Shown: positions 6,602 to 37,058 of the stretch, piece after piece
Numbering within the stretch: position 1 is the stretch's first letter
How the letters are laid out: each line of letters starts with the position of its first letter
DNA from: Conyzicola sp.
Lineage (GTDB): Bacteria; Actinomycetota; Actinomycetes; Actinomycetales; Microbacteriaceae
Direction: 5' to 3'
Length of the DNA stretch: 64,000 bases
Assembly: GCF_046714715.1 (NCBI RefSeq)
Contig: NZ_JBKKAD010000168.1
Coordinates: 38,152-102,151 of the forward strand
Notes under the pieces: model-generated
Told to the model about the DNA's origin: nothing
Seen by the model: the letters and a program-made list of their open reading frames with translations, nothing else
Database searches by the model: none
Position numbers and translations under genes: made by a program

Positions 6602-6685
6602 AGGTAACGAACTGGCCACACCTCACGGTAGGCTCTCCGGCTGGTTCGAGCGTTGTGCTCGCGCGTACCAGTCGAACGCGCGGTG

Positions 6686-7141
6686 CTAGTTGGCGACGTC
6701 TCCGCGCCAGGCTCCGGTCGCGGTGTGCTGCTCTTCGATGAACTTCTTGAAGTTGTCGAGGTCGCTCTTGATGATGTGGTCGTCGACACCCAGAACGGCG
6801 CCGGCCTTTTCGGCGAGGCCGCTGGCCTCCCAGTCGAGCTGCACGGTCACGCGCGTTTCGTCGTCTTTCAGCTTGTGGAAGGTGACCACACCCGCGTGGT
6901 TCTCTTCGCCGCCTACGCTGTTCCAGGCGACGCGCTCGTCGGCGTGCTGCTCAGTGATCTCGGCGTCGAATTCGCGCTCGATTCCGGCGACCTTCACCTT
7001 CCAGTGCGTGAGGGTGTCAGTGGTCTGGGTGATCGACTCGACGAAGCTCAGGAACTTGGGGAACGTCTCGAACTGGGTCCACTGGTTGTAGGCCGTCGAA
7101 ACGGGAACGTTGACGTCGACGGTTTTGATGACCTGGGGCAT
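6686..7141 (-). CDS. SRPBCC family protein (polyketide cyclase/dehydrase-like)
   Basis: Start moved to ATG at 7141 (MPQVIKTVDVNVP..), which has AGGAAG about 9 nt upstream; sequence YNQWTQFETFPKFLSFVESI...WNSVGGEENHAGVVTF is typical of the family. Confidence 0.8.
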   Translation of the reverse strand: MPQVIKTVDVNVPVSTAYNQWTQFETFPKFLSFVESITQTTDTLTHWKVKVAGIEREFDAEITEQHADERVAWNSVGGEENHAGVVTFHKLKDDETRVTVQLDWEASGLAEKAGAVLGVDDHIIKSDLDNFKKFIEEQHTATGAWRGDVAN

Positions 7142-7382
7142 TGCTATCTTCTTCCTGTTGATCTCTCTGGTGGATTGATCTGTCGGTTGCATTGATGTGC
7201 GGGCCACAAGGTTCGTGGCCACCCCTTCGACGTTACGGAGCCACCGGAGCGCTCGCTGCCCCTCGCCAGCGCGACGGTCGGGTGCTAGTGTCCCGCGTCG
7301 ACCGCCCGTTCACAGGTTCGCCCGATTCACGCGTTCGCTGGTTCGATCTAGCAGACAGCGCTCCACCCGGCCGCCTCCCTGG

Positions 7383-8891
7383 CTATCCTGCCGCCGCTCT
7401 CTCCAGGTCGTGCAGCGCGGCGCTCTTCGAGGGCATCGCGCGCGGAACACGGTCGGGGTCGACGTCGGCCGGCGGCACGAGCCAGTAGTCGGCACCGCTT
7501 CGCGTGATCTCCCAGTTGTTGTCGTGCAGCAGCAGATGGTGATGTCGGCAGAGCAGGATGCCGTTCACAATGTCGGTGGGGCCGTGATCGCGTTTCCAAT
7601 GTCGAATGTGGTGCGCTTCGGTCCACGAGGGTGGCCGATCGCAACCGGGCCAGCGACAGCCGCCATCGCGGGCCGCGAGGGCCACGCGTTGCCGCGCGGT
7701 GAAGAGCCTCTGTTCGCGGCCGACGTCGATGGGTTGCCCGGTAAAGAAGTCGATCGTGAGGGTGCCCACGTCGCAGGCGTTGCGTTCGATAGTCGCGATG
7801 GAGACCGGGATGTCGAGACCCTCGATGCGTCCGTGGCTGGGGGAGGGGGCTGTTGCGACGCCAGCACCAGCACCGACACCAGCGCCAGCACCAGCACCAG
7901 CACCGGTACCAGTTCCACCACCACCAGAACCGCCAGCGCCGAACGCCGAGCCCGCACGGGCGCGTTTCGCCGCTTCCAGCGCGGTCACGTTGGCGAGCAA
8001 CCGCACCGCGGGCACACGGGAGCCGACCATGATGCGCGACTCGTCGGCCGCCGACCCCGCCCGCAGCACGTGCAGGAACGCATCGTGCACGTATTGGTCG
8101 GTCGTGCGGCCATCGGCGACGACAGCGTCGGCCCAAGCCTTGTCGTCGGGGTCGACGAACCGCGGCCCGCCCCGGCGTGGCGAGCTGATCGAGTCGTAGA
8201 GCGAGTCGAGGAACGCCGTGGACTCGAGATCGGCGTCGACGATGTAGCGGTTCAGGCCGTTCGCGCGTCGAACCCGGCGAACCGCCCGCTGCTCATAGAT
8301 CTGGCGTTCACGTTCGACGATGCCGGCTTCGTCGAGGTCGTCGCGAAGTTCGCGGGCGCGCTTGAACATCGCGTCGGCATCGAGCGGGAGCGCGACCAAC
8401 GATGCCGCCGCAGCGCTCAGCTGTTCGGCAGTGACCCCGACCCCCGGCTCACCGAGCCCGGCCTGAATGGCCGTCGCAGCCGCGACGGAAAGCGAGCCGC
8501 CTGCAACCGCCCGCCCGACGTCGCGCATCCAGACGGCACCCGAGGGTGTCGGCTCGTGGGCGTCGAGCACCAGCGCCCCGGCCTTCACCAGTGTCACTGC
8601 GTCGCGGGCGGTAGACCCCGTCTCGTGCTGCACGAGCTTCTCGGGCGTGCGGAAACCGGAGCGCTGAGCGAGGCCGGAATGCCCGAGCGACGGGTCTGAG
8701 CGGCGCCCGACCTCGCCCGCGACGACCGCGGCAGCGGTGTCGACCGCGCGTCGCACCGCCGCGAGCGACCGCTGGGCCGCCAATAGCTCGTCATCGGAGA
8801 TAGACGTGAAGACCGTGGCATCCGAGGGCACCGACTCGGCGCACTGCAACAGCGTTGCGAGCGACGCATCGAGTGGGGCCGTGGAAGACAT
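7383..8891 (-). CDS. HNH endonuclease, DUF222 (13E12-repeat) family
   Basis: C-terminal CRWPGCDRPPSWTEAHHIRHWKRDHGPTDIVNGILLCRHHHLLLH HNH motif; N-terminal DUF222-like region; alternative start at 8939. Confidence 0.85.
   Translation of the reverse strand: MSSTAPLDASLATLLQCAESVPSDATVFTSISDDELLAAQRSLAAVRRAVDTAAAVVAGEVGRRSDPSLGHSGLAQRSGFRTPEKLVQHETGSTARDAVTLVKAGALVLDAHEPTPSGAVWMRDVGRAVAGGSLSVAAATAIQAGLGEPGVGVTAEQLSAAAASLVALPLDADAMFKRARELRDDLDEAGIVERERQIYEQRAVRRVRRANGLNRYIVDADLESTAFLDSLYDSISSPRRGGPRFVDPDDKAWADAVVADGRTTDQYVHDAFLHVLRAGSAADESRIMVGSRVPAVRLLANVTALEAAKRARAGSAFGAGGSGGGGTGTGAGAGAGAGVGAGAGVATAPSPSHGRIEGLDIPVSIATIERNACDVGTLTIDFFTGQPIDVGREQRLFTARQRVALAARDGGCRWPGCDRPPSWTEAHHIRHWKRDHGPTDIVNGILLCRHHHLLLHDNNWEITRSGADYWLVPPADVDPDRVPRAMPSKSAALHDLERAAAG
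7861..7945. repeat. hexanucleotide-type microsatellite (ccagca/ccggta)n inside the HNH gene
   Basis: Run ccagcaccagcaccgacaccagcgccagcaccagcaccagcaccggtacc..; encodes the GGSGGGGTGTGAGAGAGAGVGAGAGV linker. Confidence 0.8.
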
Positions 8892-9019
8892 GTATGAATT
8901 TTCCCAAGCGACCGTCGCGCGTGGTGAAGATCCGGCCAAACTCGGGAGCGTTCTCCACAGGCAATATCTGTGGAGGACCGGTTGACCCGCCCCCTACCCC
9001 CGCGAGTACGGTCGTGCCC

Positions 9020-9352
9020 ATGGCGAACATCGTGGAAAAGATCGCGCAACAGGTCACATCCGTTGGCGCGAAGGCAAGCTATGGAGAACCGGTCACCGTC
9101 GGTGGAGTCGAGCTCGTTCCCGTCGCGCTGGTCTGGTTCGGATTCGGCGGCGGAAGTGACGAAGCCGAGCAGGGCGGAGGAGGCGGCGGAGGCGCCAGTA
9201 TCCCGGTCGGCGCCTACGTGCGCGGGCCGGACGGCGCCAAGTTCAAGCCGAACCTCGTGGCGCTGCTCGCGGTCACCGTGCCGATCGCCTGGGCGGTGAG
9301 CTGGGGAATCGTGGGTATCGCGCTGGCAGCGTCCGGTCGACGCAAGCGGTAG
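9020..9352 (+). CDS. GerW/YtfJ-like protein
   Basis: Start at internal ATG (MANIVEKIAQQV..SYGEPVTVGGVELVPVA..GGGGG..PVGAYV), the pattern of the YtfJ/GerW family; C-terminal TM segment. Confidence 0.65.
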   Translation: MANIVEKIAQQVTSVGAKASYGEPVTVGGVELVPVALVWFGFGGGSDEAEQGGGGGGGASIPVGAYVRGPDGAKFKPNLVALLAVTVPIAWAVSWGIVGIALAASGRRKR

Positions 9353-9359
9353 CGGGGCA

Positions 9360-9417
9360 GGTTTCGATACGGGCGCGGGCGCCCTACTCAACCAGCAGAC
9401 GGCCCTACTCACCCAGC
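9360..9417. repeat. GAGTAG-element, right-half copy plus duplicated terminal arm
   Basis: ggtttcgatacgg-gcgcgggcgc-cctactcaaccag followed by cagacggccctactcacccag. Confidence 0.8.
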
Positions 9418-9526
9418 GACGAAAAACCTAATCCGTGTCATCCGGTATATATCCCGCAGCGACAGGCGTTGGCTTGGGGGTGTGGCGCGATCCGCCACTG
9501 TTCCGCAATGTAAGGAGAACGGCTCT

Positions 9527-10360
9527 ATGAGTGCAGTACCCACCATCAAACTGAATGACGGCGTCGAGATTCCGCAGCTCGGATTCGGCGTGTTCCAGGT
9601 GCCGCCCGAGGACACCAAGAAGGCCACGCTCCAGGCGCTCGAGGTCGGCTACCGCCACATCGACACCGCCGAGATGTACGGTAACGAGAAGGGCGTCGGC
9701 GAGGCCGTCGCCGAGTCGGGAATCGCGCGCGACGAGATCTTCGTCACGAGCAAGCTGAACAACACGTTCCACGCCCGCGAAGACGCGCTCAAGGCGTTCG
9801 ACACCACCATGGAGGCGCTCGGATTCGAGACGCTCGACCTCTTCCTCATCCACTGGCCGATGCCCGCCGTCGGCGATTACGTCGAGACGTGGAAGGCCAT
9901 GGAGGAGATGAAGGCATCCGGCCGCGTCCGCTCGATCGGCGTGTCCAACTTCCAGCCCGCGCACCTTCAGCGTCTGTTCGACGAGACCGAGACCGTGCCC
10001 TCGGTCAACCAGATCGAGGTGCATCCGTACCTCACGAACGAGGTCGCCCGCGCGTTCAACGCTCAGCACGGTATCGCCACCGAGGCGTGGTCGCCGATCG
10101 CCAAGGGCAACGTGCTCACCGACCCCGTCGTCACCGCGATCGCCGAGCGGGTCGGCCGCAGCGCCGCCCAGGTCACCCTGCGCTGGCACATCCAGCGTGG
10201 CGACATCGTGTTCCCGAAGTCGGTCACGCGCAGCCGGGTCGAGGAGAACCTCGCCCTGTTCGACTTCGAGCTCACCGACGCCGACATCGACGCCATCGCG
10301 AAGCTCAACCGCGATGAGCGCACGGGTCCCGACCCCGACACGTTCAACTGGATTCCGTAA
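9527..10360 (+). CDS. aldo/keto reductase (2,5-diketo-D-gluconate reductase-like)
   Basis: ATG at 9527 with AAGGAG 8-14 nt upstream; LNDGVEIPQLGFGVFQ, GYRHIDTAEMYGNE and IHWP motifs. Confidence 0.9.
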   Translation: MSAVPTIKLNDGVEIPQLGFGVFQVPPEDTKKATLQALEVGYRHIDTAEMYGNEKGVGEAVAESGIARDEIFVTSKLNNTFHAREDALKAFDTTMEALGFETLDLFLIHWPMPAVGDYVETWKAMEEMKASGRVRSIGVSNFQPAHLQRLFDETETVPSVNQIEVHPYLTNEVARAFNAQHGIATEAWSPIAKGNVLTDPVVTAIAERVGRSAAQVTLRWHIQRGDIVFPKSVTRSRVEENLALFDFELTDADIDAIAKLNRDERTGPDPDTFNWIP

Positions 10361-28650: not shown

Positions 28651-28679
28651 GTAGGTCGCTCCGCGACCGTATCGAAGCC
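28643..28679. repeat. GAGTAG-element, left-half copy
   Basis: ccggttgagtagg-tcgctccgcga-ccgtatcgaagcc; truncated exactly where the low-GC island begins. Confidence 0.8.
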
Positions 28680-28684
28680 TGCTT

Positions 28685-28732
28685 TCGAAAAGCGAGCCGC
28701 CACTATCACTATCCAACATGGCGGCGGCTCGC
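28685..28732 (-). terminator. rho-independent terminator candidate ending the small Cys-rich ORF / helicase transcription unit
   Basis: 10-bp stem gcgagccgcc / ggcggctcgc (21-nt loop) followed on the minus strand by TTTTCGAAA. Confidence 0.5.
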
Positions 28733-28789
28733 CCTCGTGCGTAACTGCGACGTCAGGCAGCTAAGGCTCGACGAGCATTTTGCTCTTTA

Positions 28790-28939
28790 TTAACCCATAG
28801 CGATGCATTGCTTACAGCGGTCGTTTCCGCCGGTACCGGAAACACGATTGCTCGCGGGGATCTGTTGTCCCGTGGGGCAATGTTCGTGATCATGATAGAC
28901 GTCGGGATCCGACGGGTTTGACGAGTGATATGCGCTCAT
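28790..28939 (-). CDS. hypothetical small Cys-rich protein (49 aa)
   Basis: Not in the ORF track; MSAYHSSNPSDPDVYHDHEHCPTGQQIPASNRVSGTGGNDRCKQCIAMG; strong AAGGAG 6 nt upstream of the ATG; C-x20-C-x2-C spacing. Confidence 0.55.
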   Translation of the reverse strand: MSAYHSSNPSDPDVYHDHEHCPTGQQIPASNRVSGTGGNDRCKQCIAMG

Positions 28940-29017
28940 GACGTTCTCCTTTGAAACATCGTGAGGAGCAAGGTGCCCCTACAACGCAACTGTATGTAAC
29001 GGATGCGGCACAGGGGC

Positions 29018-31105
29018 CTACGAAACGCCGACCCACAGCCCGTCACGCGCTCGCGTCATCGCCACATACAGTGCGCGGCGATCAAGTTCTCGACGCTCGC
29101 TCGATGCGTTGTCAGCGGCGGGTGCAGATTCGAGAAGTGAGCGGGGTGTACGTGCCATCAGTACCTGTTTGAACTCGAGCCCCTTCGCCCGGTGAACGGT
29201 TCCGACCTTCACCGCATCAACTGCTTGACCGCTGTAATGCGTCAGCTCAACCGTGGGGATTCCGGCAGCCTGCAGCGCCTTGACCATGTGAGCAGCCTGC
29301 CAATTGGCGAGTGCGAGCACACCCACATCGCCGTAACTCGTGCCCGTCGCCTTGACAGCCAGAACGTGGTCCACAAGCGATTCGTCGTGGAGGGTGGTTG
29401 AAGCGAACCGTGTAATCATTGGGGCGGGGCCGTGCCTCAGGATCTCCTGTGAAGCATCCGCCATGCTTATCGCGCCCTCGATGTCGACGAATTCGTCGCC
29501 GGCGACAAGCGAGGCGGCGAACTCTACGATCTCGAAGGTATTTCTGTAGTTCGTGGTCATGACAACGCCGCGGCCAGCGATCGACACATTCGCCTCGGCA
29601 AGAGTGAAGCCGCCAGGGTAGATCGTCTGTTGGCCGTCGCCGATCAGGTTGAGCCCGTCGGGCTTGTTGCCAACGAGCGAGTGCAACATTCGCACCATCA
29701 TGCACGTGAGATCCTGAGCCTCGTCAATGATGACCGCGCTGTAGCCTTCGAGCGGCTTCGTCCGTAGCGAGGCAGCGGCGTGCAGGATGACATCGGGGAA
29801 GTCGTAGATCTGGGCTGCGATTCGAGCCTTCTCGTAGGCAACGTAGAAGCGCCACACGTGGCGGCGCTGCTCGACAGTCAGCCGTCGACGTCGCCCGGAA
29901 CGCGCCAGAGCGGAGTACTGATCGATGGTCCGGATGCCACGGCCTTTGATCACTGCATTGATCTCGTCGAGCCAGTAATCGGCTGAAGGGTCGAGCACCT
30001 CAAGGTCGGCGCCATAACGGGACCAAGTGGCGTCGAAGAGGCTCTCAGCCTCTTCATGTTGAAGATTGACGTGCACGCCTCGCTGTTTGAGTACGTCGAG
30101 GGCGAACGAATAGACGCCGTGAAACTCGACGCGGTCACTCACATCGGGAGCGAGCCGCGCGAGTAGCGATTCGAGCACCGCAGGGAGGGTTCGGACGAAC
30201 GCCGTAACGAGTACCTTGCCCTGATTCGATCGCGCCAAATAGGCCGCGCGATGCAAACCGACGACGGTCTTTCCCGTCCCGGCAGCGCCGCGAATCCGCG
30301 AAGGACCGGAAAAGGTCCGATTCACGAGCTTCGCCTGCGTCGGGTGCAGGAACGCCATCCAATCTTCGATCGGAAGCGCCATCACTCCCTCGACGAGTGC
30401 GCTCTCGATCTCGGCGGCCGTCAATCTGTTCACATAGACGGCTTCAGGCAAAAGGTCCGGTAGGTCTTCGGGCAGAACGGGTTCGACGAACGACAGATCC
30501 AGCTCCAGTGAATTGTCGGTCTCATAGATGGGAAAAAGCTCGTCTAAGGCCTCGACGACGTTCGCCAACTGAGCGGTGGAGAGTCGCGCGCCCGCTCGCG
30601 AGATGCGCGTCACCACCTCAGCTTCGGAGAGGAGGGTGACCCCGTAGAGGTCCGTGCTCTTGAAGTTCCGCTTGTCAGTGAAAACCGCCAGCGCGTGAAC
30701 TTCGCCGGGCGCTAGCCCGATGTCCGCGAGAATTGTGCGGGTGGAGTCGGCTAGGTCAGCGATGTTGGCGAAGTCATCCGTGACATCCGCCTGATCCCGA
30801 AAGACGGCCCCGCCGGCGACAGTCACGTCGCGCCACGCTTTGGCGTCGACGATGAAGACTCCGCCCGGACCAGCGACGATGAAGTCGACCTGCGCGCGAC
30901 GGCTTTTCGGCCACCGACGGTCGGCCAACACCGTGTAGCCGCGGCTCTCGAGCACTTCGAGTGTGTGCGCTAGGCGCCGCTCGCTGTGTGCGGCCGCAGC
31001 AAAGCGTCGTTCCATTTCCTTTGCGGCGGTCGCGAGGCGTTCGAGTTCTCCGGCCAGCAAGCCCTGGCGGTGCGACTCGAGTGCGGCGGAATCACCTGCG
31101 GGCAT
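29018..31105 (-). CDS. NERD nuclease domain - UvrD/REP-type SF1 helicase fusion protein
   Basis: 695 aa; NERD-type PD-(D/E)xK motif QVDFIVAGPGGVFIVDAKAW; helicase Walker A GAAGTGKT, motif II VIIDEAQDL, motif VI VGTVHRAKGLEFKQV. Confidence 0.85.
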   Translation of the reverse strand: MPAGDSAALESHRQGLLAGELERLATAAKEMERRFAAAAHSERRLAHTLEVLESRGYTVLADRRWPKSRRAQVDFIVAGPGGVFIVDAKAWRDVTVAGGAVFRDQADVTDDFANIADLADSTRTILADIGLAPGEVHALAVFTDKRNFKSTDLYGVTLLSEAEVVTRISRAGARLSTAQLANVVEALDELFPIYETDNSLELDLSFVEPVLPEDLPDLLPEAVYVNRLTAAEIESALVEGVMALPIEDWMAFLHPTQAKLVNRTFSGPSRIRGAAGTGKTVVGLHRAAYLARSNQGKVLVTAFVRTLPAVLESLLARLAPDVSDRVEFHGVYSFALDVLKQRGVHVNLQHEEAESLFDATWSRYGADLEVLDPSADYWLDEINAVIKGRGIRTIDQYSALARSGRRRRLTVEQRRHVWRFYVAYEKARIAAQIYDFPDVILHAAASLRTKPLEGYSAVIIDEAQDLTCMMVRMLHSLVGNKPDGLNLIGDGQQTIYPGGFTLAEANVSIAGRGVVMTTNYRNTFEIVEFAASLVAGDEFVDIEGAISMADASQEILRHGPAPMITRFASTTLHDESLVDHVLAVKATGTSYGDVGVLALANWQAAHMVKALQAAGIPTVELTHYSGQAVDAVKVGTVHRAKGLEFKQVLMARTPRSLLESAPAADNASSERRELDRRALYVAMTRARDGLWVGVS

Positions 31106-31251
31106 TCGCGGATCCTGTCGTCGTGACGCTCACGGCCGAGCGTCCGTCTCATCCTGCACTAGCTGAGCCTCCCTCGACAGAGGCCAGTTGTGGGGGTAGC
31201 TGACTCCCGTCAGAATTCAATAATGCTGAGATTTACTAGTAGTTTGAACGC

Positions 31252-32973
31252 ATGTTGTCTTGGGGAGTTAGTGATTTCAAATCGCTCGTGTCAGCTCGAT
31301 TGAAACTCGACGGGCGACGGTTAAGCGTTGTGAGCGGTACCAACAGCTCCGGAAAATCGTCACTTTTGCAATCACTATTGCTCCTATCGCAGTCAAGTGC
31401 CGGAGGAGGCGAGCTTGCGCTCAACGGTCGACTGGTGCGTCTGGGTGCGCCTGATGACGTGGTGCGTAACGGTCAAAAGAGTCTCGAGCTCGCCTTCGAA
31501 TTCTCTCCGGTCGAAGGTAGATCGCAAGGACAGACCGCTCCTGAAATGAAAGTGCAGTTTTCCCTTGCCCCAAACGGACCTAGGCTCACCGTCGTTGATG
31601 TCGAGATTTTGGACCTAGCCGACGCAACAGTTGTTTTCGAGGCGACGGTGACTCGGCTGAACCGGGCAGACGTAAAGGCGCTATCTGACCTGCTCAGGGA
31701 CGATTCACTAACGGTGCTCCGAATATCTACGGAGAACCAACGACGCGCTGCAAACAGGATGTATTTGGTTCTGCGAGGTTTGATGCCGGTGGGAATCGCA
31801 CTGATCAGATCGGCCTCGTGGATAGAAAAAACCTATAACGGCTACGTCGAGGACTCGAGCTTCAAGAGCCCCAACGTTCAGGAGAACCCAAACCGGCTAC
31901 GTTCCTTTGTGACGAATGAACTCAGTTTGCTGGTGAACAAACGGGAGTTCATGGCCTCGCACCCCGAAATCGAACCGATTGAAGATCAGTCGCCGATGTA
32001 TCGAACTCGGTGGTCACTTCAAGAGTGGCGATCAATGGAAGCGAATGTCCGCCAAGAGCTGGTGGATTTGGCTATTCGTCAGCGTTCTCGGAACCCCTGG
32101 GTGGTCATTTCGACCAATGGCGCTCGTTTCGACGGGCGGAATCCCACGCGCTATCAAGGGCTCGTAGAGAACGTGGTGGCAAGCGAACACGAGCTAGCTC
32201 TACACCTACTCGCGACAGTGGGGGAGGAAATTGAGAACACGGCGGACGATATCGCATACCTCGGGCCGCTGAGGGACGAACCGAGGGTTGTCCATAGCGC
32301 TTGGGACGAGCGAATGGAATCTTTGCCTGTTGGTATTCGTGGCGAGTTGACTGCCGAAGTGCTAACCCGGCTAAAAGATCATCGGGTGACGTATGGCGAT
32401 TGGGATGGTAAAACCCGAACAGAGAGGCTACCGGAAGCGGTCAGTCGCTGGTGCGAGTACTTGGGCATTGGAGACCACATTGAGGTGATCGATCACGGGA
32501 AACTGGGACGCGGCGTTCGACTTAGAGTTGAGGGCGTTCATCGAGACCTTACGACGATTGGCGTGGGTGCAAGCCAGCTGCTTCCGGTCTTAGTCGCGGC
32601 ATTGGCTATCGACGAGAATTCAATACTTTTGATTGAGCAGCCCGAACTTCACCTGCATCCCGCGGTCCAGTCCCGCCTGGCAGACTTCTTCTTGTTCGCC
32701 CGCCCTGACGTTCGACTCATAGTAGAGACCCATAGTGAGTATCTCGTGACTCGCCTGCGTCGTCGTGTTGCTGAGGGCCGTACGCCTAGCGACGGCATAG
32801 CGGTCATATTCGTGGAGCAGGAGAACGGAGCGTCGACTCTCCGCACCCTTTCGATCGATCAATTCGGGGACATGTCGGAATGGCCCACGGGGTTCTTTGA
32901 CGCGCAGGATTCTGACTCGCTCGCGATTATGAAAGCTGTAGCTAGGACGATGCAAGCCGGGCTCGATTCGTGA
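31252..32973 (+). CDS. ABC-type (AAA_15/AAA_21-like) ATPase with DUF3696-like C-terminal tail
   Basis: 573 aa; N-terminus DFKSL..VVSGTNSSGKSS (Walker A), GVGASQLLPV signature-like, ILLIEQPELHLHP (Walker B/D-loop), VETHS (H-loop), terminal WPTGFFD; no TOPRIM region. Confidence 0.85.
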   Translation: MLSWGVSDFKSLVSARLKLDGRRLSVVSGTNSSGKSSLLQSLLLLSQSSAGGGELALNGRLVRLGAPDDVVRNGQKSLELAFEFSPVEGRSQGQTAPEMKVQFSLAPNGPRLTVVDVEILDLADATVVFEATVTRLNRADVKALSDLLRDDSLTVLRISTENQRRAANRMYLVLRGLMPVGIALIRSASWIEKTYNGYVEDSSFKSPNVQENPNRLRSFVTNELSLLVNKREFMASHPEIEPIEDQSPMYRTRWSLQEWRSMEANVRQELVDLAIRQRSRNPWVVISTNGARFDGRNPTRYQGLVENVVASEHELALHLLATVGEEIENTADDIAYLGPLRDEPRVVHSAWDERMESLPVGIRGELTAEVLTRLKDHRVTYGDWDGKTRTERLPEAVSRWCEYLGIGDHIEVIDHGKLGRGVRLRVEGVHRDLTTIGVGASQLLPVLVAALAIDENSILLIEQPELHLHPAVQSRLADFFLFARPDVRLIVETHSEYLVTRLRRRVAEGRTPSDGIAVIFVEQENGASTLRTLSIDQFGDMSEWPTGFFDAQDSDSLAIMKAVARTMQAGLDS

Positions 32974-33842
32974 GGACGATCGTCTTTGACCCTGGTCTGG
33001 CGCTTTCAACTTTCAGCTCTCCAGTGGAACAAAGTCGTTTCTGGGTTCGTTTTGTCGAATGGGAGCGCGATGAACGCGTCGCAATGGGCAGTGAAACGCA
33101 TGGAGCAGTGAGTCACTTCTACGCGACGCGAGTATGCAGCAGCGGCAGTAGCGTGCCGGCAGGCATGTCCAAAGGGGTGCATCGAGCAATGAAGGCTCTG
33201 CTGAGCCGGCCCCCGCTCAAGAACGCTGATTCGTTTAGAGAGCGAACACTGGACGTAAAGTACCTTGGCAAGGACGCTAACGCCACTATTCTCGCGATTG
33301 ACATCGGGGCCATGCAGCATGCATCCGAGTTGCACCTCGCGATCGCCGCCGAATGCTGGCCTGCTGGTGTAACGGTTGGGCGCGTACTACCCGCTCCGCC
33401 GGAGCGGGTCTTCTTCCAAACGGTGCCGAACTCACCAACTGAATCGGAAAGGTGGGAAGCTCGCGCAGACGCGCTACAAGACTTCAAACTTCTTGTCGTC
33501 GGCGGCCAACCAGACAGGTCTGTTGCGGAATCACTACTTGCGAAACTGAATGTCGACAGATCTCGACTTGTATGGGTCCCCTGTGAGAAGTCCAAACCTC
33601 CGCGAAATCTGGATGCGCAAATCAAAGGTACCCGGGACTCACAAACGATTGTGATTTGCATCACCGGGAAGATGGGGCATTCGACGTCTAACAAAGTTCG
33701 GGAGAACTGCACGAAGGTGGGGATCCCGCTTGTCAACGTGGAGTCTGCGGGTGAGATATTGCCGAAACTTGGAAAGTACGCCGATGCGTTGGTCGCCGCC
33801 GCTCGTCTGGCTCTGAGCACCGGTGCTGACGTGGGAGCCTAG
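32970..33842 (+). CDS. hypothetical protein with DUF2325-like C-terminal domain
   Basis: 290 aa; GTG overlaps the ATPase stop (GTGA); C-terminus LLVVGGQPD..(about 45 aa)..TIVICITGKMGHSTSNKVRENCTKVGIPLVNVES fits the DUF2325 pattern as I recall it; N-terminal 170 aa unrecognised. Confidence 0.6.
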   Translation: MRTIVFDPGLALSTFSSPVEQSRFWVRFVEWERDERVAMGSETHGAVSHFYATRVCSSGSSVPAGMSKGVHRAMKALLSRPPLKNADSFRERTLDVKYLGKDANATILAIDIGAMQHASELHLAIAAECWPAGVTVGRVLPAPPERVFFQTVPNSPTESERWEARADALQDFKLLVVGGQPDRSVAESLLAKLNVDRSRLVWVPCEKSKPPRNLDAQIKGTRDSQTIVICITGKMGHSTSNKVRENCTKVGIPLVNVESAGEILPKLGKYADALVAAARLALSTGADVGA

Positions 33843-33929
33843 AACCACAGCCCCCACATAGAAACCGCATAGCCGCCCCTGTCTAACTAGTCACACCTCG
33901 TTCACCGACTAGTAACCCAGGAGCGCACC

Positions 33930-34547
33930 ATGGTTTCCGCCGTAATGATCGCCATCGATCTGTTCGCCATCTCGATCATGACGTTCGGCATGTATTTCCC
34001 GCGTCACCGGCGCCGCGATCTCGTGGTCGCATTCCTCGGCGTCAACGTGGGCGTGCTCGCCGTGGCGACCGTGCTGGGCTCTTCGGAGGTCGGCGTCGGC
34101 CTGGGGCTCGGCCTCTTCGGCGTCTTGTCGATCATCCGGCTGCGGTCGTCTGAGATCTCGCAGACCGAGGTCGCCTACTACTTCGCGTCCCTCGCGCTCG
34201 GCCTGATGGCCGGACTCAGCACGACTATCAACCCGCTCGTAATCGCCCTGATGGCGCTCATCGTGCTGGTGCTGTTCGTCGGCGACAACCCGCGCCTGTT
34301 CAAGCAGTACCGCCAGCAGACGGTGCAGCTCGACACGGCCTACGCCGACGAGACCAAACTGCGGCTCGAACTCGAGCGCATGCTCGGCGCCCGCGTTCAG
34401 AAGGTCACCGTGCAGCACCTCGACCTCGTGAACGACACGACCCTGGTCGACGTGCGCTACCAGGCCATCAGCAAGCCGCCCACCCAGGCGCGGTTCCTGG
34501 CAGCGGATGACGCCGAGCAGCGCGACCTCGTAGGGAGCACCCGATGA
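33930..34547 (+). CDS. DUF4956 domain membrane protein
   Basis: 205 aa; FGMYFPRHRRRDLVVAFLGVNVGV..GLFGVLSIIRLRS pattern; AGGAG RBS. Confidence 0.75.
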   Translation: MVSAVMIAIDLFAISIMTFGMYFPRHRRRDLVVAFLGVNVGVLAVATVLGSSEVGVGLGLGLFGVLSIIRLRSSEISQTEVAYYFASLALGLMAGLSTTINPLVIALMALIVLVLFVGDNPRLFKQYRQQTVQLDTAYADETKLRLELERMLGARVQKVTVQHLDLVNDTTLVDVRYQAISKPPTQARFLAADDAEQRDLVGSTR

Positions 34548-35287
34548 ACCACCTCGACACCATCTCGCTCGACGAGCTGATCGCCGCCGCCGCGCTGCAG
34601 ACCCGGGTCGACCGCAAGTACATCCTTCGGGCGCACGAGGCGGATGCCGTGCTCGAAAAATTGGATGCGACGACGCGCGTTCTCGAGATCGACGGGCAGC
34701 GGGCATCCAACTATGAGTCCGTCTACTTCGACACCCCCGGACTGCTGAGCTACCGCATGGCAGCCACCGGACGCCGCCGGCGCTTCAAGCTACGCACGCG
34801 CAGCTACGTCGACACCGCCGAGTCGTACCTCGAGATGAAGACGCGCGGCGCCCGCGGCACGACGATAAAAGACCGCCTGCCCTACCTGATGCGCGACCGC
34901 GACGCCCTCACACCCGACGGGCGCGAATATGCGGATGCGGCCCTCGATGGCATCGGAATCGACCACCCGGAGCAACTCGACCTCGTGCCCACCCTGGTCA
35001 CCCGCTACCGCCGAGCGACTCTGTATGTGCCGAACTCGCAGAGCCGCGCGACCGTCGACACCGACCTCAGTTGGGAGACCAACGACGGCGCAGTTCTGCG
35101 GCTGCCGCGCTCGGTGATCATCGAGACCAAGTCTGGTCAGCGCACCAGCGACGTCGACCGACTCCTCTGGTCGCACGGACACCGCCCGGCCACGATCTCC
35201 AAATTCGGAACCGGCTTAGCCGCCATGCGGCACGATCTTCCCTCCAACAAATGGGCGCGCGTACTGCGCCACCACTTCGACGCTTAG
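34544..35287 (+). CDS. VTC domain (polyphosphate polymerase-like) protein
   Basis: 247 aa; RVDRKYIL.., YESVYFDTPGLLSY, RRRFKLRTRSY, EMKTRG motifs; 4-nt overlap with the upstream gene. Confidence 0.75.
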   Translation: MNHLDTISLDELIAAAALQTRVDRKYILRAHEADAVLEKLDATTRVLEIDGQRASNYESVYFDTPGLLSYRMAATGRRRRFKLRTRSYVDTAESYLEMKTRGARGTTIKDRLPYLMRDRDALTPDGREYADAALDGIGIDHPEQLDLVPTLVTRYRRATLYVPNSQSRATVDTDLSWETNDGAVLRLPRSVIIETKSGQRTSDVDRLLWSHGHRPATISKFGTGLAAMRHDLPSNKWARVLRHHFDA

Positions 35288-35297
35288 GACCCACATC

Positions 35298-37058
35298 ATG
35301 CGCAAAAAGTTCGCCCTCCCAATGACCCTCACCTCCCTGCTGCTCGGCGCCGTGATCCTCACGGCCTGTGCGACAACGACAACAGAGGCCACCGACGCAG
35401 CCGCATCGAGCAGCTCGGCCATCGCCGACGTCGACGCGACGCTCACCGCCGAGGCGGTGCTCGCCGCGAACGAAGACGCCACCACGACGAACGACGACGA
35501 GTGGTCGATGGACGACGCCGTCGAGATCACGCTCGACGGAGACACCGCGACATCCGATTCTGAGAACGTCACCATCGACGGATCGACCGTCACCATCGAC
35601 GGATCGACCGTCACCATCACGGCGGCCGGCACCTACGTGCTCAGCGGCACGCTCGACGACGGGCAGATCGTGGTCGACTCCGTCGACGAGGGGGTCGTCG
35701 CGCTCGTACTCGACGGCGCCGACATCTCCTCCACAACGGAATCGGCGATCACGTTCACCACGGCGACCAACGCGGTCGTCTCGCTCGCCGACGGCAGCGA
35801 GAACACGCTGAGCGACACGTCCGCGTACGCCGACACGGCCGAGGCCAACGCCGCGCTGTACGCCGACACCGATCTCACCATCACCGGCACCGGAAGCCTC
35901 ACCGTGAACGGAAACGGCAACGACGGCATCACCTCGACCGACGATCTAGTCGTGCTGTCGGGCACGATCGCGGTGGACGCGGTCGACGACGGCCTGCGCG
36001 GCAAAGACTCGCTCACCGTCGAGGACGGCGACATCACGGTCACCGTCGGCGGCGACGGACTCAAGAGCGACAACGACGAAGACCTGACCCGCGGCTACAT
36101 CGACATCCAGGGCGGCACACTCGACGTGACGGCCGCCGGCGACGGCGTCGACGCCGAGACCGACCTCGTGATCACCGGCGGCTCCGTCACGGTCGCGGCC
36201 GGCGGAGGCGCGAGCAAGCAGGTAACCGACACCTCGTCCAAGGGTCTTAAGGGCGGCACCTACGTGATCGTCGAGGGCGGCACGATCGACGTCGACTCCT
36301 CCGACGACGCGGTGCACTCGAACGGTGCGATCCACCTGGGCGGCGACGCCGAGGTCACCCTCGCCAGCGGCGACGACGGCGTTCACGCCGACACCGCGCT
36401 GCTCATCGACGGCGGCACGGTCGCGGTCACCGAATCCTACGAGGGGCTCGAGAGCGCCACCATCACCGTCGCGGAAGGCACGGTCGACGTGACGGCGAGC
36501 GACGACGGCATCAACGCGTCGGCCGGCACGACGACCGAGACCACGGGCGGCGGCATGGGCGGCGAGACCGGCGGCACCGAGATGGTCTCCATCACCGGCG
36601 GCGACACGACCATCCACGCCGACGGCGACGGGTTCGACTCGAACGGATCCGCCGAGATCAGCGGCGGCACCCTCACCGTCTACGGGCCGACGAACGACGG
36701 CAACGGCGCGCTCGACGTCAACGGAACCCTCGAGGTGAGCGGCGGCACGGTGCTCGCTGCCGGCAGCTCGGGCATGGTCGTCTCCCCGAGCGATGACTCC
36801 GCGCAGGGCTTCCTCGCCGCGACGGCCAGCGGCGAGGCCGGCTCCGAGGTCGAGATCCGAGACGCGGATGGCACGGTGGTCACGTCGTTCACTTCTGAGA
36901 AGCAATTCGCGTCGGTCGTCTACTCGGGTAGCAAACTCGTGGCCGATGCCGAGTACAGGGTCTACGTCGACGGCTCCGAGGCGGGCACGGCGACCGAGGG
37001 CGTGGCGGCCGCCGGCGGAATGGGCGGTGGCGGAATGGGCGGCGGCGAACGGCCGTGA
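35298..37058 (+). CDS. secreted lipoprotein, Cthe_2159-like carbohydrate-binding beta-helix repeat protein
   Basis: 586 aa; lipobox LTAC; many repeats of ..G(T/S)(L/V)T(V/I)..GDG(I/L/F)(D/K/T)S..; Gly/Met-rich tail. Confidence 0.7.
   Translation: MRKKFALPMTLTSLLLGAVILTACATTTTEATDAAASSSSAIADVDATLTAEAVLAANEDATTTNDDEWSMDDAVEITLDGDTATSDSENVTIDGSTVTIDGSTVTITAAGTYVLSGTLDDGQIVVDSVDEGVVALVLDGADISSTTESAITFTTATNAVVSLADGSENTLSDTSAYADTAEANAALYADTDLTITGTGSLTVNGNGNDGITSTDDLVVLSGTIAVDAVDDGLRGKDSLTVEDGDITVTVGGDGLKSDNDEDLTRGYIDIQGGTLDVTAAGDGVDAETDLVITGGSVTVAAGGGASKQVTDTSSKGLKGGTYVIVEGGTIDVDSSDDAVHSNGAIHLGGDAEVTLASGDDGVHADTALLIDGGTVAVTESYEGLESATITVAEGTVDVTASDDGINASAGTTTETTGGGMGGETGGTEMVSITGGDTTIHADGDGFDSNGSAEISGGTLTVYGPTNDGNGALDVNGTLEVSGGTVLAAGSSGMVVSPSDDSAQGFLAATASGEAGSEVEIRDADGTVVTSFTSEKQFASVVYSGSKLVADAEYRVYVDGSEAGTATEGVAAAGGMGGGGMGGGERP

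What the first reader, a model, noticed from the sequence alone, without database searches (positions are those of the whole stretch)
29018..31105. NERD nuclease fused to a UvrD-type helicase, divergent from the ATPase operon: Gabija-like parts list with shuffled domains
The 695-aa protein has four parts:
- An N-terminal coiled-coil.
- A NERD domain with an intact PD-(D/E)xK-type motif (VDFIV...FIVDAKAW).
- A complete SF1 helicase core (GAAGTGKT, VIIDEAQDL, VHRAKGLEF).
- A C-terminal tail.

Gabija pairs an ABC-ATPase-TOPRIM nuclease (GajA) with a UvrD helicase (GajB). Here the ATPase lacks a nuclease and the helicase carries one. The two genes share a 146-bp AT-rich divergent control region.

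Inference: the nuclease function has moved onto the helicase, either as an analogous nuclease-helicase-ATPase defence complex or as a stand-alone Nhi-like nuclease-helicase immunity gene sitting next to an independent ATPase module.
Basis: partly seen in the sequence, partly recalled or inferred. Interest (0 to 1): 0.65.

Follow-up and report, generated by a model that had tools for sequence, protein, structure and literature searches.

The report
Stand-alone nuclease-helicase beside an inserted defence cassette
The nuclease-helicase gene is real and intact, but it is an old resident gene of this bacterial lineage, and the ATPase next to it arrived later as a separate two-gene defence cassette, so the two do not form a Gabija-like system.

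Summary
The 695-aa ORF (29018-31105, minus strand) is real. It has a NERD nuclease domain with its D...DxK motif intact, fused to a complete UvrD-type SF1 helicase. There is no C-terminal tail, and the "coiled-coil" is one predicted long helix.

The Gabija-like reading fails.
- Orthologs of the helicase (46-89% identity) occur across Microbacteriaceae, Cellulomonas and Demequina. None of 84 such loci carries the DUF3696 ATPase or its partner within 10 kb.
- None of 85 loci of ATPase relatives carries a NERD-UvrD gene.
- In the closest relative the helicase lies directly next to the DUF4956-VTC genes. Here, exactly 2,646 bp (31199-33844, GC 0.555 against about 0.68) is inserted 93 bp upstream of the helicase start.
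- The insert is the ATPase (Menshen NsnB / HEC-03 type) plus a translationally coupled 290-aa partner that travels with it elsewhere.
- A sister genome has a PARIS-like cassette at the same junction, so the site looks like a hotspot.

The helicase is therefore a stand-alone nuclease-helicase under strong purifying selection. Its helicase module is closest to ArmD of ARMADA type II (31% identity). Whether it serves immunity or DNA repair is unresolved. This is a new member of known kinds and of modest interest.

The parts
29018..31105 (-). NERD-UvrD nuclease-helicase gene, 695 aa plus stop codon
   Evidence: ORF. Pfam NERD, UvrD-helicase and UvrD_C. Orthologs at 46-89% identity.
30677..30988 (-). 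NERD (PD-(D/E)xK) nuclease domain, aa 40-143. Putative catalytic residues: E42, D74 (within 30875-30892), D87 and K89 (within 30833-30853)
   Evidence: Pfam 43.3 bits with a full-length profile match. Conservation of these residues in A1. Strands 58-103 modelled at pLDDT 78-89. Coordinates.
30941..31096 (-).
   Evidence: AlphaFold2 secondary structure, pLDDT 62-88. Coiled-coil pairing was not tested.
30419..30517 (-). Acidic, proline-rich linker, aa 197-229, predicted disordered and rich in indels among orthologs
   Evidence: pLDDT below 50. Gapped columns in A1.
29021..30370 (-). Compact UvrD-type SF1A helicase module, aa 246-695. Q motif 30335-30352, Walker A 30266-30289, Walker B 29711-29734, motif V 29171-29197, motif VI 29045-29068
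   Evidence: Collinear at 31% identity with an ArmD-type helicase.
31106..31198 (.). Ancestral upstream region of the helicase, 93 bp, GC 0.645. It is conserved in all five related genomes, and synteny breaks at its far end
   Evidence: blastn block ends at window positions 31195-31202 in L001, L081, L083 and L084. Junction alignment. GC.
31199..33844 (+). Inserted two-gene cassette, 2,646 bp, GC 0.555
   Evidence: In L081 the two flanking blocks are 13 bp apart. Junction alignment. GC.
31252..32973 (+). ABC ATPase with DUF3696 tail, of the NsnB / HEC-03 type. Walker A 31336-31359, signature 32560-32577, Walker B LLIEQPELHLHP 32626-32661, H-loop 32725-32736
   Evidence: Pfam. PADLOC NsnB 2.6e-62 and HEC-03B 1.2e-57. 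Invariant columns. Coordinates.
32970..33842 (+). 290-aa partner of the ATPase. GTG start overlaps the ATPase stop by 4 nt. Two alpha/beta domains; the C-terminal half is weakly DUF2325-like
   Evidence: Homologous partner follows the ATPase in L085-L090, L092 and L094. 137 family representatives. Model pLDDT 95.2. DUF2325 hit in 24 of 60 members.
33930..37058 (+). Ancestral neighbours DUF4956, VTC and Cthe_2159. In the closest relative they lie directly next to the helicase
   Evidence: Gene table of L081 and L082. Pfam. 80-91% amino-acid identity.

Best explanation
**Shown**
- ORF 29018-31105 encodes an intact single-chain nuclease-helicase. From the N-terminus it has a long helix, a NERD PD-(D/E)xK domain, a disordered linker and a compact UvrD-type SF1A helicase.
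- It is an old, mostly vertically inherited chromosomal gene of this Microbacteriaceae lineage. It is under strong purifying selection and has no conserved partner gene.
- The divergent ATPase belongs to a separate 2.65-kb, lower-GC cassette inserted 93 bp upstream of the helicase start in this genome only. The cassette holds an NsnB/HEC-03-type ABC ATPase with a DUF3696 tail and a translationally coupled 290-aa partner.
- The divergent arrangement and the "shared" intergenic region therefore come from that insertion. A sister genome has a different cassette at the same junction, so the site behaves as a hotspot.

**Inferred**
- The helicase works alone, or as a homo-oligomer through its N-terminal helix. 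It would load on single-stranded DNA at ends, nicks or replication intermediates, translocate 3'-5' using ATP, and cut with the tethered NERD nuclease.
- This is the logic of effector-helicase fusions such as ArmD and Nhi, and of RecB and AddA.
- I put its role at about 50% anti-plasmid/anti-phage immunity and about 40% DNA-end processing or repair.
- The cassette is inferred to act on its own like HEC-03 or Menshen: the ABC ATPase senses infection and controls the partner protein bound to its DUF3696 tail.
For: **Independence of the two genes**
- tblastn finds the ATPase and its partner in 0 of 80 genome loci that hold a helicase ortholog.
- An HMM built from ATPase homologs hits only the window among 84 such loci.
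- A motif scan for any OLD/ABC-type ATPase finds 3 of 85 loci.
- In the reverse direction, 0 of 85 loci of ATPase relatives hold a NERD-UvrD gene.
- Three annotated contexts of ATPase homologs show the ATPase plus a 272-283 aa partner among relaxase, type I restriction-modification and resolvase genes.

**Insertion**
- L081 positions 6681-9893 match window 37045-33845, and L081 9907-12091 match window 31198-29015.
- The junctions align cleanly.
- GC is 0.555 in the insert against 0.67-0.69 in the flanks.

**Hotspot**
- L083 (helicase 88% identical) has an AriA-like ATPase (2.6e-24) and an AriB-like gene (5e-4) ending at the same junction.
- L084 and L001 also break synteny there.

**Resident status of the helicase**
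- Orthologs reach 84-89% identity at the same site.
- dN/dS is 0.035-0.10, with the same branching order as the flanking genes.
- The nearest neighbour belongs to the same genus in 35 of 53 cases, including 13 of 13 Curtobacterium.
- 459 neighbouring genes fall into 324 clusters, of which 262 are singletons.

**Enzyme integrity:**

**Leaning towards defence**
- PADLOC C3a187 (116.6 bits) and GajB subfamily models (up to 92.4 bits) outscore the housekeeping UvrD, Rep and PcrA models (about 55 bits).
- The helicase module is 31% identical (E 1e-61) to an ArmD-type helicase.
- Orthologs have GmrSD, Nhi-like, SNF2, McrB-like and methylase-Vsr genes as neighbours.
Against: - No activity was measured.
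- The helicase model is only moderate (pLDDT 70.6, 15 sequences).
- Broad vertical conservation and a very low dN/dS are unusual for an immunity gene and fit a housekeeping enzyme equally well.
- Two of the five closest genomes have an ABC-ATPase cassette next to the helicase. That could hint at cooperation in trans rather than chance at a hotspot.
- The neighbour survey covers the best 80 of at least 218 genome loci, so rarer arrangements could have been missed.
- No target-site duplication, inverted repeat or recombinase marks the insert, so how it was inserted is unknown.
Confidence: 0.8

Rival explanations
1. Gabija-like complex. The NERD-UvrD helicase and the divergent DUF3696 ATPase (with or without the 290-aa protein) form one defence system, with the nuclease carried by the helicase instead of the ATPase.
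For: - The genes are adjacent and divergent, 146 bp apart.
- GajB models match the helicase and GajA models match the ATPase weakly.
- A sister genome also has an ABC ATPase plus a TOPRIM-like gene next to the helicase.
Against: - Co-occurrence is 0 of 84 and 0 of 85 in the two directions.
- The cassette is a recent insertion that the closest relatives lack.
- The ATPase travels with its own partner and without a helicase.
- GC contents differ: 0.62 for the helicase and 0.555 for the cassette.
- The solved GajB matches only at E 0.015, against 1e-17 for UvrD1 and PcrA.
Confidence: 0.04
2. Housekeeping repair enzyme. The NERD-UvrD protein is a lineage-specific DNA-end-processing or recombination nuclease-helicase, a single-chain analogue of AddA, RecB or AdnB. 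It has no immune role, and its defence-gene neighbours only reflect a variable chromosomal region.
For: - It is widespread and largely vertically inherited in Micrococcales.
- dN/dS is 0.035-0.10, lower than for the flanking metabolic genes at 0.15-0.45.
- The best solved relatives are UvrD1, PcrA, UvrD, and AdnB and RecB.
- No close copy is found on phages or on true plasmids.
Against: - Scores against the housekeeping UvrD, Rep and PcrA models are about 55 bits against cut-offs above 900, so it is not an ortholog of any of them.
- No conserved repair-operon partner was found.
- GC3 is lower than in the flanks, and synonymous divergence is 2-4.6 times higher.
- The nearest characterised relative of the helicase module is a defence component.
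- Both flanks collect defence cassettes.
Confidence: 0.4
3. Modular cooperation in trans. The resident helicase is a general helper, sensing or processing DNA ends as GajB does. Whichever ABC-ATPase cassette lands in its upstream hotspot exploits it, which would explain ATPase cassettes at that site in two of five close genomes.
For: An NsnB-like cassette in the window and a PARIS-like cassette in L083 sit at the same junction.
Against: - Only 3 of 85 helicase loci have any OLD/ABC-type ATPase within 10 kb.
- Both cassette types occur widely without such a helicase (PARIS from general knowledge).
- Other relatives have unrelated genes at the site.
Confidence: 0.05

Closest known systems
ArmD of ARMADA type II (E. 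coli; PMC12458937), represented here by the 704-aa helicase of E. coli plasmid NZ_CP114794
   Same: The helicase module is collinear from the Q motif to the C-terminus: 31% identity over 487 aa, E 1e-61. Both place an effector domain at the N-terminus of a compact UvrD-type helicase. The plasmid protein has Walker A K266 and Walker B D454, the positions mutated in ArmD.
   Different: The N-terminal domain is NERD here, whereas the paper describes a RelE-like RNase for ArmD; Pfam finds no domain in the plasmid protein's N-terminus. ArmD needs ArmA, ArmB and ArmC, and none is present here. This gene has no conserved neighbour.
Nhi (nuclease-helicase immunity, S. epidermidis SERP2475; bioRxiv 10.1101/776245)
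   Same: One polypeptide with an N-terminal PD-(D/E)xK-type nuclease and an SF1 helicase. It acts alone and is often found beside other defence genes.
   Different: Nhi's helicase is the DUF2075/PF09848 SF1B type. Here it is the UvrD SF1A type, and PF09848 scores 22.2 bits, below its cut-off. Nhi is rare, patchy and often plasmid-borne. This family is broadly and mostly vertically conserved.
Gabija (GajA plus GajB)
   Same: A UvrD-family helicase and an OLD/ABC-type ATPase lie side by side. PADLOC GajB subfamily models match at up to 6.7e-27.
   Different: The ATPase has no TOPRIM domain and is of the NsnB type. The two genes do not co-occur. The solved GajB matches only at E 0.015. GajB itself has no nuclease domain (general knowledge).
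C3a187 'NERD+UvrD' (type III CRISPR accessory candidate, PMC6546367) and the UG34-associated NERD-helicase (PMC9226505)
   Same: The same two-domain architecture has already been catalogued. C3a187 is the best PADLOC hit at 3.4e-34.
   Different: The best-scoring stretch lies in the helicase part (aa 448-690), and the N-terminal 241 aa alone hit no PADLOC model. No cas gene or reverse transcriptase is among the immediate neighbours.
Menshen NsnB-NsnC and HEC-03 (for the neighbouring cassette)
   Same: The ABC ATPase has a DUF3696 tail: NsnB 2.6e-62, HEC-03B 1.2e-57. The Walker B catalytic Glu is replaced by an amide, EQ here and EN in NsnB. A small, tightly coupled partner gene lies downstream.
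   Different: There is no NsnA (DUF262/ParB) gene. The 290-aa partner matches no PADLOC model and gives no PIN or nuclease match by Foldseek; its C-terminal half is weakly DUF2325-like.

Membership tests
NERD (PF08378) PD-(D/E)xK nucleases | Profile match above the curated threshold over the whole domain | tested here: met
   43.3 bits against a cut-off of 22.1; protein aa 40-143 match profile positions 4-111 of 111.
NERD (PF08378) PD-(D/E)xK nucleases | Catalytic D ... (D/E)xK residues kept | tested here: met
   D74 is invariant, and D87 and K89 are at least 90% conserved in 15 orthologs. They lie on strands 72-79 and 82-89 of the model. The residue-by-residue match to the Pfam consensus is from memory, not printed by a tool.
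UvrD/PcrA/Rep SF1A helicases | Motifs Q, I, II, III, IV, V and VI, and the UvrD fold | tested here: met
   Motifs located. Pfam UvrD-helicase and UvrD_C. Foldseek top hits are UvrD, PcrA and Rep at E 1e-14.
Orthologs of housekeeping UvrD, Rep or PcrA | NCBIfam equivalog score above the cut-off | tested here: not met
   52-57 bits against cut-offs of 911-1144.
Gabija | GajA: an ABC ATPase fused to a TOPRIM nuclease | tested here: not met
   The ATPase has AAA_15/AAA_21 and DUF3696 and no TOPRIM. Its best PADLOC hit is NsnB; GajA models reach only 5e-10.
Gabija | Conserved co-occurrence of the helicase with the ATPase | tested here: not met
   0 of 84 and 0 of 85 loci. The cassette is an insertion.
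Gabija | Helicase closer to GajB than to other UvrD helicases | tested here: inconclusive
   PADLOC GajB subfamily models match at 6.7e-27. The solved B. cereus GajB matches at E 0.015, against 2e-17 for UvrD1.
Nhi | DUF2075/PF09848 SF1B helicase domain | tested here: not met
   PF09848 scores 22.2 bits, below its cut-off of 24, with no stretch passing. Nhi's domains are taken from bioRxiv 10.1101/776245.
Nhi | Single-gene anti-phage activity | not testable with these tools
   Needs phage assays.
ARMADA type II (ArmD) | Operon with ArmA (BrxHII-like), ArmB (PglX-like) and ArmC (YprA-like), and an N-terminal RelE-like domain | tested here: not met
   The neighbours are ADH, HTH, ATPase and DUF4956 genes. 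The N-terminal domain is NERD. Only the helicase module is homologous.
C3a187 / CRISPR type III accessory | Adjacent to a type III cas cassette | tested here: not met
   The eight genes scanned around the ORF include no cas family. The rest of the window was not scanned for CRISPR arrays.
Menshen (for the cassette) | NsnB: an ABC ATPase with a DUF3696 tail | tested here: met
   PADLOC NsnB 2.6e-62. Pfam DUF3696 30.4 bits against a cut-off of 22.
Menshen (for the cassette) | NsnA: a DUF262/ParB sensor gene in the operon | tested here: not met
   No DUF262 gene lies next to the ATPase in the window or in L085, L087 and L089.
Menshen / HEC-03 (for the cassette) | Partner with a PIN-like N-terminal domain and, in Menshen, a nuclease effector | tested here: inconclusive
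   The 290-aa partner has a confident model (pLDDT 95.2) made of two alpha/beta domains. It has no PADLOC hit, and Foldseek gives no PIN or nuclease match. A divergent inactive-PIN-like fold cannot be excluded.

The most novel reading that the evidence does not exclude
The resident NERD-UvrD helicase is a lineage-fixed immune enzyme of Micrococcales that also marks a defence-integration hotspot. ABC-ATPase cassettes landing there (NsnB-like here, PARIS-like in a sister genome) use it in trans as an end-sensing or end-processing partner. That would be a modular, unlinked counterpart of Gabija.
Probability: 0.05. Interest if true: 0.7.

Novelty: new member of a known kind. Interest (0 to 1): 0.3.

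Why it matters
The proposed new system is not real, so a divergent gene pair in a defence-rich region should not be read as one system without a co-occurrence test.

Three things remain of some use.
- There is a large, well-conserved family of NERD-UvrD fusion proteins in Micrococcales. Its helicase module is related to the ARMADA component ArmD, and its role, immunity or repair, can be tested with three point mutants.
- A precise insertion point 93 bp upstream of this gene has taken up different ABC-ATPase defence cassettes in sister genomes.
- The cassette is a two-gene relative of Menshen and HEC-03 that lacks NsnA. Its 290-aa partner family (137 representative sequences) has a confident predicted fold with no solved counterpart, so its effector chemistry is unknown.

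Tried and rejected
- **Gabija-like complex.** Rejected on co-occurrence and on the insertion analysis.
- **Canonical Menshen.** Rejected because there is no DUF262/NsnA gene.
- **Nhi membership.** Rejected because the helicase class differs.
- **PADLOC on the N-terminal 241 aa, the 290-aa partner and the ORF at 33909-34706.** No hits even at E 10.
- **Word-indexed homolog search for the 290-aa partner.** It found only one relative. The exhaustive representative search was needed.
- **Foldseek and a PDB profile search for the partner.** Only generic Rossmann-like matches.
- **Marks of the insertion mechanism.** No target-site duplication or terminal inverted repeat at the insert ends, no tRNA or Rfam element in the window, and no promoter or terminator excess.
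- **The 367-bp spacer downstream of the helicase.** No homology to the genes inserted at that position in relatives.
- **Literature on DUF2325.** Nothing relevant.
- **Failed call.** One Pfam call failed on wrong coordinates for the Embleya homolog and was not repeated.
Full report
**1. What is at the coordinates**

An ATG-started ORF of 695 codons occupies 29018-31105 on the minus strand.
- Pfam finds NERD at aa 40-143 (E 5.8e-11, 43.3 bits against a cut-off of 22.1, profile positions 4-111 of 111). It also finds UvrD-helicase (aa 255-496) and UvrD_C/UvrD_C_2 (to aa 692).
- All helicase motifs are present: Q (FLHPTQ, 252-257), Walker A (GAAGTGKT, 273-280), Walker B (VIIDEAQD, 458-465), III (GDGQQTIY), IV (YRNT), V (VHRAKGLEF, 637-645) and VI (YVAMTRAR, 680-687).
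- In an alignment of 15 orthologs (53-84% identity), D74 is invariant. D87 and K89 of IVDAK, and E42, are at least 90% conserved. One ortholog, P0114, has IVEAT.
- An AlphaFold2 model built on that alignment is of moderate quality (pLDDT 70.6). It is good over the NERD strands 58-103 and helix 109-127. It predicts one long helix at aa 4-55, whose end is the first helix of the nuclease fold, and a disordered, indel-rich linker at 197-229.
- Foldseek places the helicase with UvrD, PcrA and Rep (E about 1e-14), then AdnB, AddA and RecB.

**2. The neighbour**

- The divergent 573-aa protein (31252-32973) is an ABC ATPase (AAA_15/AAA_21) with a DUF3696 tail.
- Its best PADLOC matches are NsnB of Menshen (2.6e-62), HEC-03B (1.2e-57) and PDC-M55A (9.4e-49). 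GajA models reach only 5e-10.
- Its Walker B reads LLIEQPELHLHP, and E462 and Q463 are invariant in 24 relatives. This resembles the EN replacement described for NsnB (PMC12065111).
- A 290-aa ORF (32970-33842) starts with a GTG that overlaps the ATPase stop codon by 4 nt. So the ATPase lacks a fused nuclease but does have a dedicated partner.

**3. Are the helicase and the ATPase linked? No.**

- The helicase has 2,244 relatives at E 1e-10 or better. The best 120 are 52-100% identical, all about 690 aa, and those that carry an organism name come from Microbacteriaceae genera such as Conyzicola, Glaciihabitans and Lysinimonas.
- A scan of one genome per species returned 80 loci with 10-kb flanks, from Microbacteriaceae, Cellulomonas, Actinotalea and Demequina.
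- tblastn found the ATPase in 0 of 80 of these loci and its partner in 0 of 80.
- An HMM built from ATPase homologs hit only the window among 84 helicase loci, plus one weak hit in L025.
- A motif scan for any OLD/ABC-type ATPase found 3 of 85 loci: the window, L083 and L025.
- In the reverse direction, three annotated contexts of ATPase homologs (51-53% and 48% identity) show the ATPase followed by an overlapping 272-283 aa ORF. They lie among a TrwC relaxase, a type I restriction-modification system or resolvases, with no helicase of this kind and no DUF262 gene.
- Those downstream ORFs are homologous to the 290-aa protein at 28-40% identity.
- Of 85 loci of ATPase relatives (80 from a metagenome scan plus L085-L089), none has a NERD-UvrD gene. 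The 290-aa family accompanies the nine closest ATPases.

**4. The adjacency is an insertion**

- The helicase's best homolog outside the window is 89% identical. The ATPase's best is 56%.
- In L081 and L082 (helicase 89% identical), the helicase lies directly and divergently next to DUF4956-VTC-Cthe_2159. These are the genes at window 33930-37058.
- blastn shows L081 6681-9893 matching window 37045-33845, and L081 9907-12091 matching window 31198-29015. In the window the two blocks are 2,646 bp apart (31199-33844), and in L081 they are 13 bp apart.
- The junction alignment shows clean breakpoints.
- The insert holds exactly the ATPase and its partner. Its GC is 0.555, against 0.62 for the helicase and 0.67-0.69 for the flanks.
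- I found no target-site duplication, terminal inverted repeat, tRNA or recombinase.
- In the empty site the breakpoint lies in the loop of an imperfect inverted repeat, GTTGTGGGG / CCCCACAGC (read).

**5. A hotspot**

- All four close relatives lose synteny with the window at window positions 31195-31202.
- L083 (helicase 88% identical) has a 436-aa AriA-like ABC ATPase (PADLOC 2.6e-24) and a 284-aa AriB-like protein (5e-4) upstream of this junction. This is a PARIS-like pair on the same strand as the helicase.
- L084 has YCII and sigma-factor genes there, and L001 a response regulator.
- The other flank varies too. Relatives have a 454-461 aa gene of unknown family (L084, L001) or 6.8 kb of other genes (L083) between the helicase and the ADH gene. 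The window has a unique 367-bp spacer of GC 0.56.

**6. What kind of gene is the helicase?**

*Evidence for an old resident gene*
- Against four close relatives, dN/dS is 0.035-0.10, compared with 0.15-0.45 for the syntenic flanking genes. The branching order is the same, with L001 and L083 closest in both.
- The nearest neighbour belongs to the same genus in 35 of 53 cases: Curtobacterium 13 of 13, Cryobacterium 4 of 4, Demequina 3 of 3, Cellulomonas 4 of 5. A few pairs cross genera at 81-91% identity, which could be transfer or mislabelled assemblies.

*No fixed partner*
- 459 neighbouring genes from 84 loci fall into 324 clusters, of which 262 are singletons.
- The neighbours mix housekeeping genes (MFS transporters, G6PD, hydrolases) with mobile and defence-type genes. 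Among the latter are DUF222/HNH, GmrSD, C5 methylase plus Vsr, McrB-like AAA_5, DEDDh exonucleases, SNF2 helicases, and DUF2075/SLFN-type (Nhi-like) helicases in five Curtobacterium and Frigoribacterium loci.

*An unexplained oddity*
- Synonymous divergence of the helicase is 2.2-4.6 times that of its flanks in every pair. Its GC3 is also lower, 0.72-0.85 against 0.83-0.96.

**7. Closest known relatives**

- Sequence profiles rank defence-associated helicase models above housekeeping ones. C3a187 "NERD+UvrD" scores 116.6 bits, and GajB subfamily models 92.4 and 87.7 bits, against about 55 bits for UvrD, Rep and PcrA, whose cut-offs exceed 900.
- The solved B. cereus GajB matches only at E 0.015, while UvrD1 and PcrA match at about 1e-17. 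"GajB-like" is therefore a loose label.
- tblastn against plasmids found a 704-aa helicase on E. coli and Klebsiella plasmids. It is collinear with aa 227-695 at 31% identity, E 1e-61.
- In NZ_CP114794 this helicase follows a very large DEAD/DEAH helicase. Its Walker A lysine is K266 and its Walker B aspartate is D454, the residues mutated in ArmD of ARMADA type II (PMC12458937).
[quoted passage not shown] The window's protein has the same helicase module with a NERD nuclease in that position.
- The NERD-plus-helicase architecture is already catalogued, as C3a187 (PMC6546367) and as a partner of UG34 reverse transcriptases (PMC9226505).
- Nhi has the analogous layout but a DUF2075-type SF1B helicase (bioRxiv 10.1101/776245). 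PF09848 scores below its threshold here.
- The N-terminal 241 aa alone match no PADLOC model.
- Close copies are absent from phages. On plasmids the only full-length hits are 36-38% identical, on megabase-sized Embleya replicons.

**8. The cassette**

- HEC-03 is an experimentally validated two-gene system of an ABC ATPase plus a PIN protein, and both genes are required (bioRxiv 10.1101/2024.01.29.577857).
- In Menshen, NsnB is predicted to bind the inactive-PIN domain of NsnC through its DUF3696 tail, and NsnA (DUF262) is proposed as the sensor (PMC12065111).
- The window's cassette has the NsnB-type ATPase and no NsnA.
- The partner's family has 137 representative sequences at E 0.001 or better.
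- Its model is confident (pLDDT 95.2, pTM 0.87) and made of two alpha/beta domains.
- Conserved positions include D7, P8, W25, W31, D34, R36, D111, W130, G178-G179, W202, E206, G233, G236 and H237.
- 24 of 60 members hit DUF2325 weakly.
- Foldseek and a PDB profile search give only generic Rossmann-like matches, with no PIN and no nuclease.
- It is best described as a two-gene variant related to Menshen and HEC-03, with a partner of unknown chemistry.

**9. Mechanism**

*Shown:* an intact nuclease motif, a complete SF1A motor, independence from the ATPase, insertion of the cassette, and strong purifying selection.

*Inferred:*
- The protein acts alone, or as a homo-oligomer. It translocates 3'-5' on single-stranded DNA and cuts with the tethered NERD domain, in the way of ArmD or Nhi in immunity and of RecB or AddA in repair.
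- I put immunity at about 50% and repair at about 40%. The sequence affinities and the genomic neighbourhood favour immunity. The vertical, slowly evolving pattern favours repair.

**10. Verdict**

The Gabija-like interpretation is refuted, and the alternative of a stand-alone gene beside an independent module is supported. This is a new member of known kinds, of modest interest.

Noticed in passing
window 31195-31202; L083:330-2699; L084:3711-5645; L001:8417-9906: All four close relatives lose synteny with the window at the same point, about 93 bp upstream of the helicase start. L083 has a PARIS-like AriA/AriB pair upstream of this junction, so the site behaves as an integration hotspot for defence cassettes.
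   Followed up: partly
window 29018-31105 compared with orthologs in L081, L001, L083 and L084: The helicase has a very low dN/dS (0.035-0.10). Its synonymous divergence is 2.2-4.6 times that of the syntenic flanking genes in every pair, and its GC3 is lower (0.72-0.85 against 0.83-0.96). Weak codon bias, or an anciently acquired gene still drifting towards the host's GC content, could explain this. It is unresolved.
   Followed up: partly
window 32970-33842: The 290-aa partner of the ATPase belongs to a small family of 137 representatives. Its predicted structure is very confident (pLDDT 95.2) but has no solved counterpart. The C-terminal half is weakly DUF2325-like. Nearly invariant residues include D7, D34, R36, D111, E206 and H237.
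   Followed up: partly
window 32626-32661: The ATPase Walker B reads LLIEQPELHLHP, and E462 and Q463 are invariant in 24 relatives. The usual catalytic glutamate is a glutamine, which suggests ATP binding with slow or no hydrolysis. NsnB of Menshen has a comparable EN replacement.
   Followed up: no
window 28651-29017: A 367-bp spacer of GC 0.56 lies between the convergent ADH and helicase genes and has no counterpart in relatives. At the same position L001 and L084 have a 454-461 aa gene with no Pfam or PADLOC hit, and L083 has 6.8 kb of other genes that begins with a DEDDh (RNase_T) exonuclease.
   Followed up: partly
L044:12131-13906, L054:12036-14756 and related Curtobacterium and Frigoribacterium loci: In five loci each, helicase orthologs lie next to a DUF2075/SLFN-type (Nhi-like) helicase or a 900-aa SNF2 helicase. 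GmrSD, C5 methylase plus Vsr, and McrB-like genes occur beside other orthologs.
   Followed up: partly
L170:4359-6473 (E. coli plasmid NZ_CP114794): A 704-aa helicase follows a giant DEAD/DEAH helicase on an IncY plasmid. Its helicase module is the same as the window's protein (31% identity), its N-terminal 215 aa are different, and its Walker residues K266 and D454 match ArmD of ARMADA type II. The N-terminal effector domain seems to be exchangeable in this helicase clade.
   Followed up: partly
L081:9880-9925 (empty site); window 31185-31198 and 33845-33860: The cassette was inserted into the loop of an imperfect inverted repeat (GTTGTGGGG ... CCCCACAGC) in the helicase/DUF4956 intergenic region. 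About 12 bp of the loop is replaced and there is no target-site duplication.
   Followed up: no
L045 and L064 (both from MAG JAEWKY01): Two different contigs of one metagenome-assembled genome each carry a helicase homolog (52% and 51% identical to the window's protein). Some genomes may therefore hold paralogs, or the bin is mixed.
   Followed up: no
P0114 in alignment A1, columns for aa 85-91: One ortholog reads IVEATAW instead of IVDAKAW, so it has lost the catalytic lysine. Its helicase motifs are all intact.
   Followed up: no
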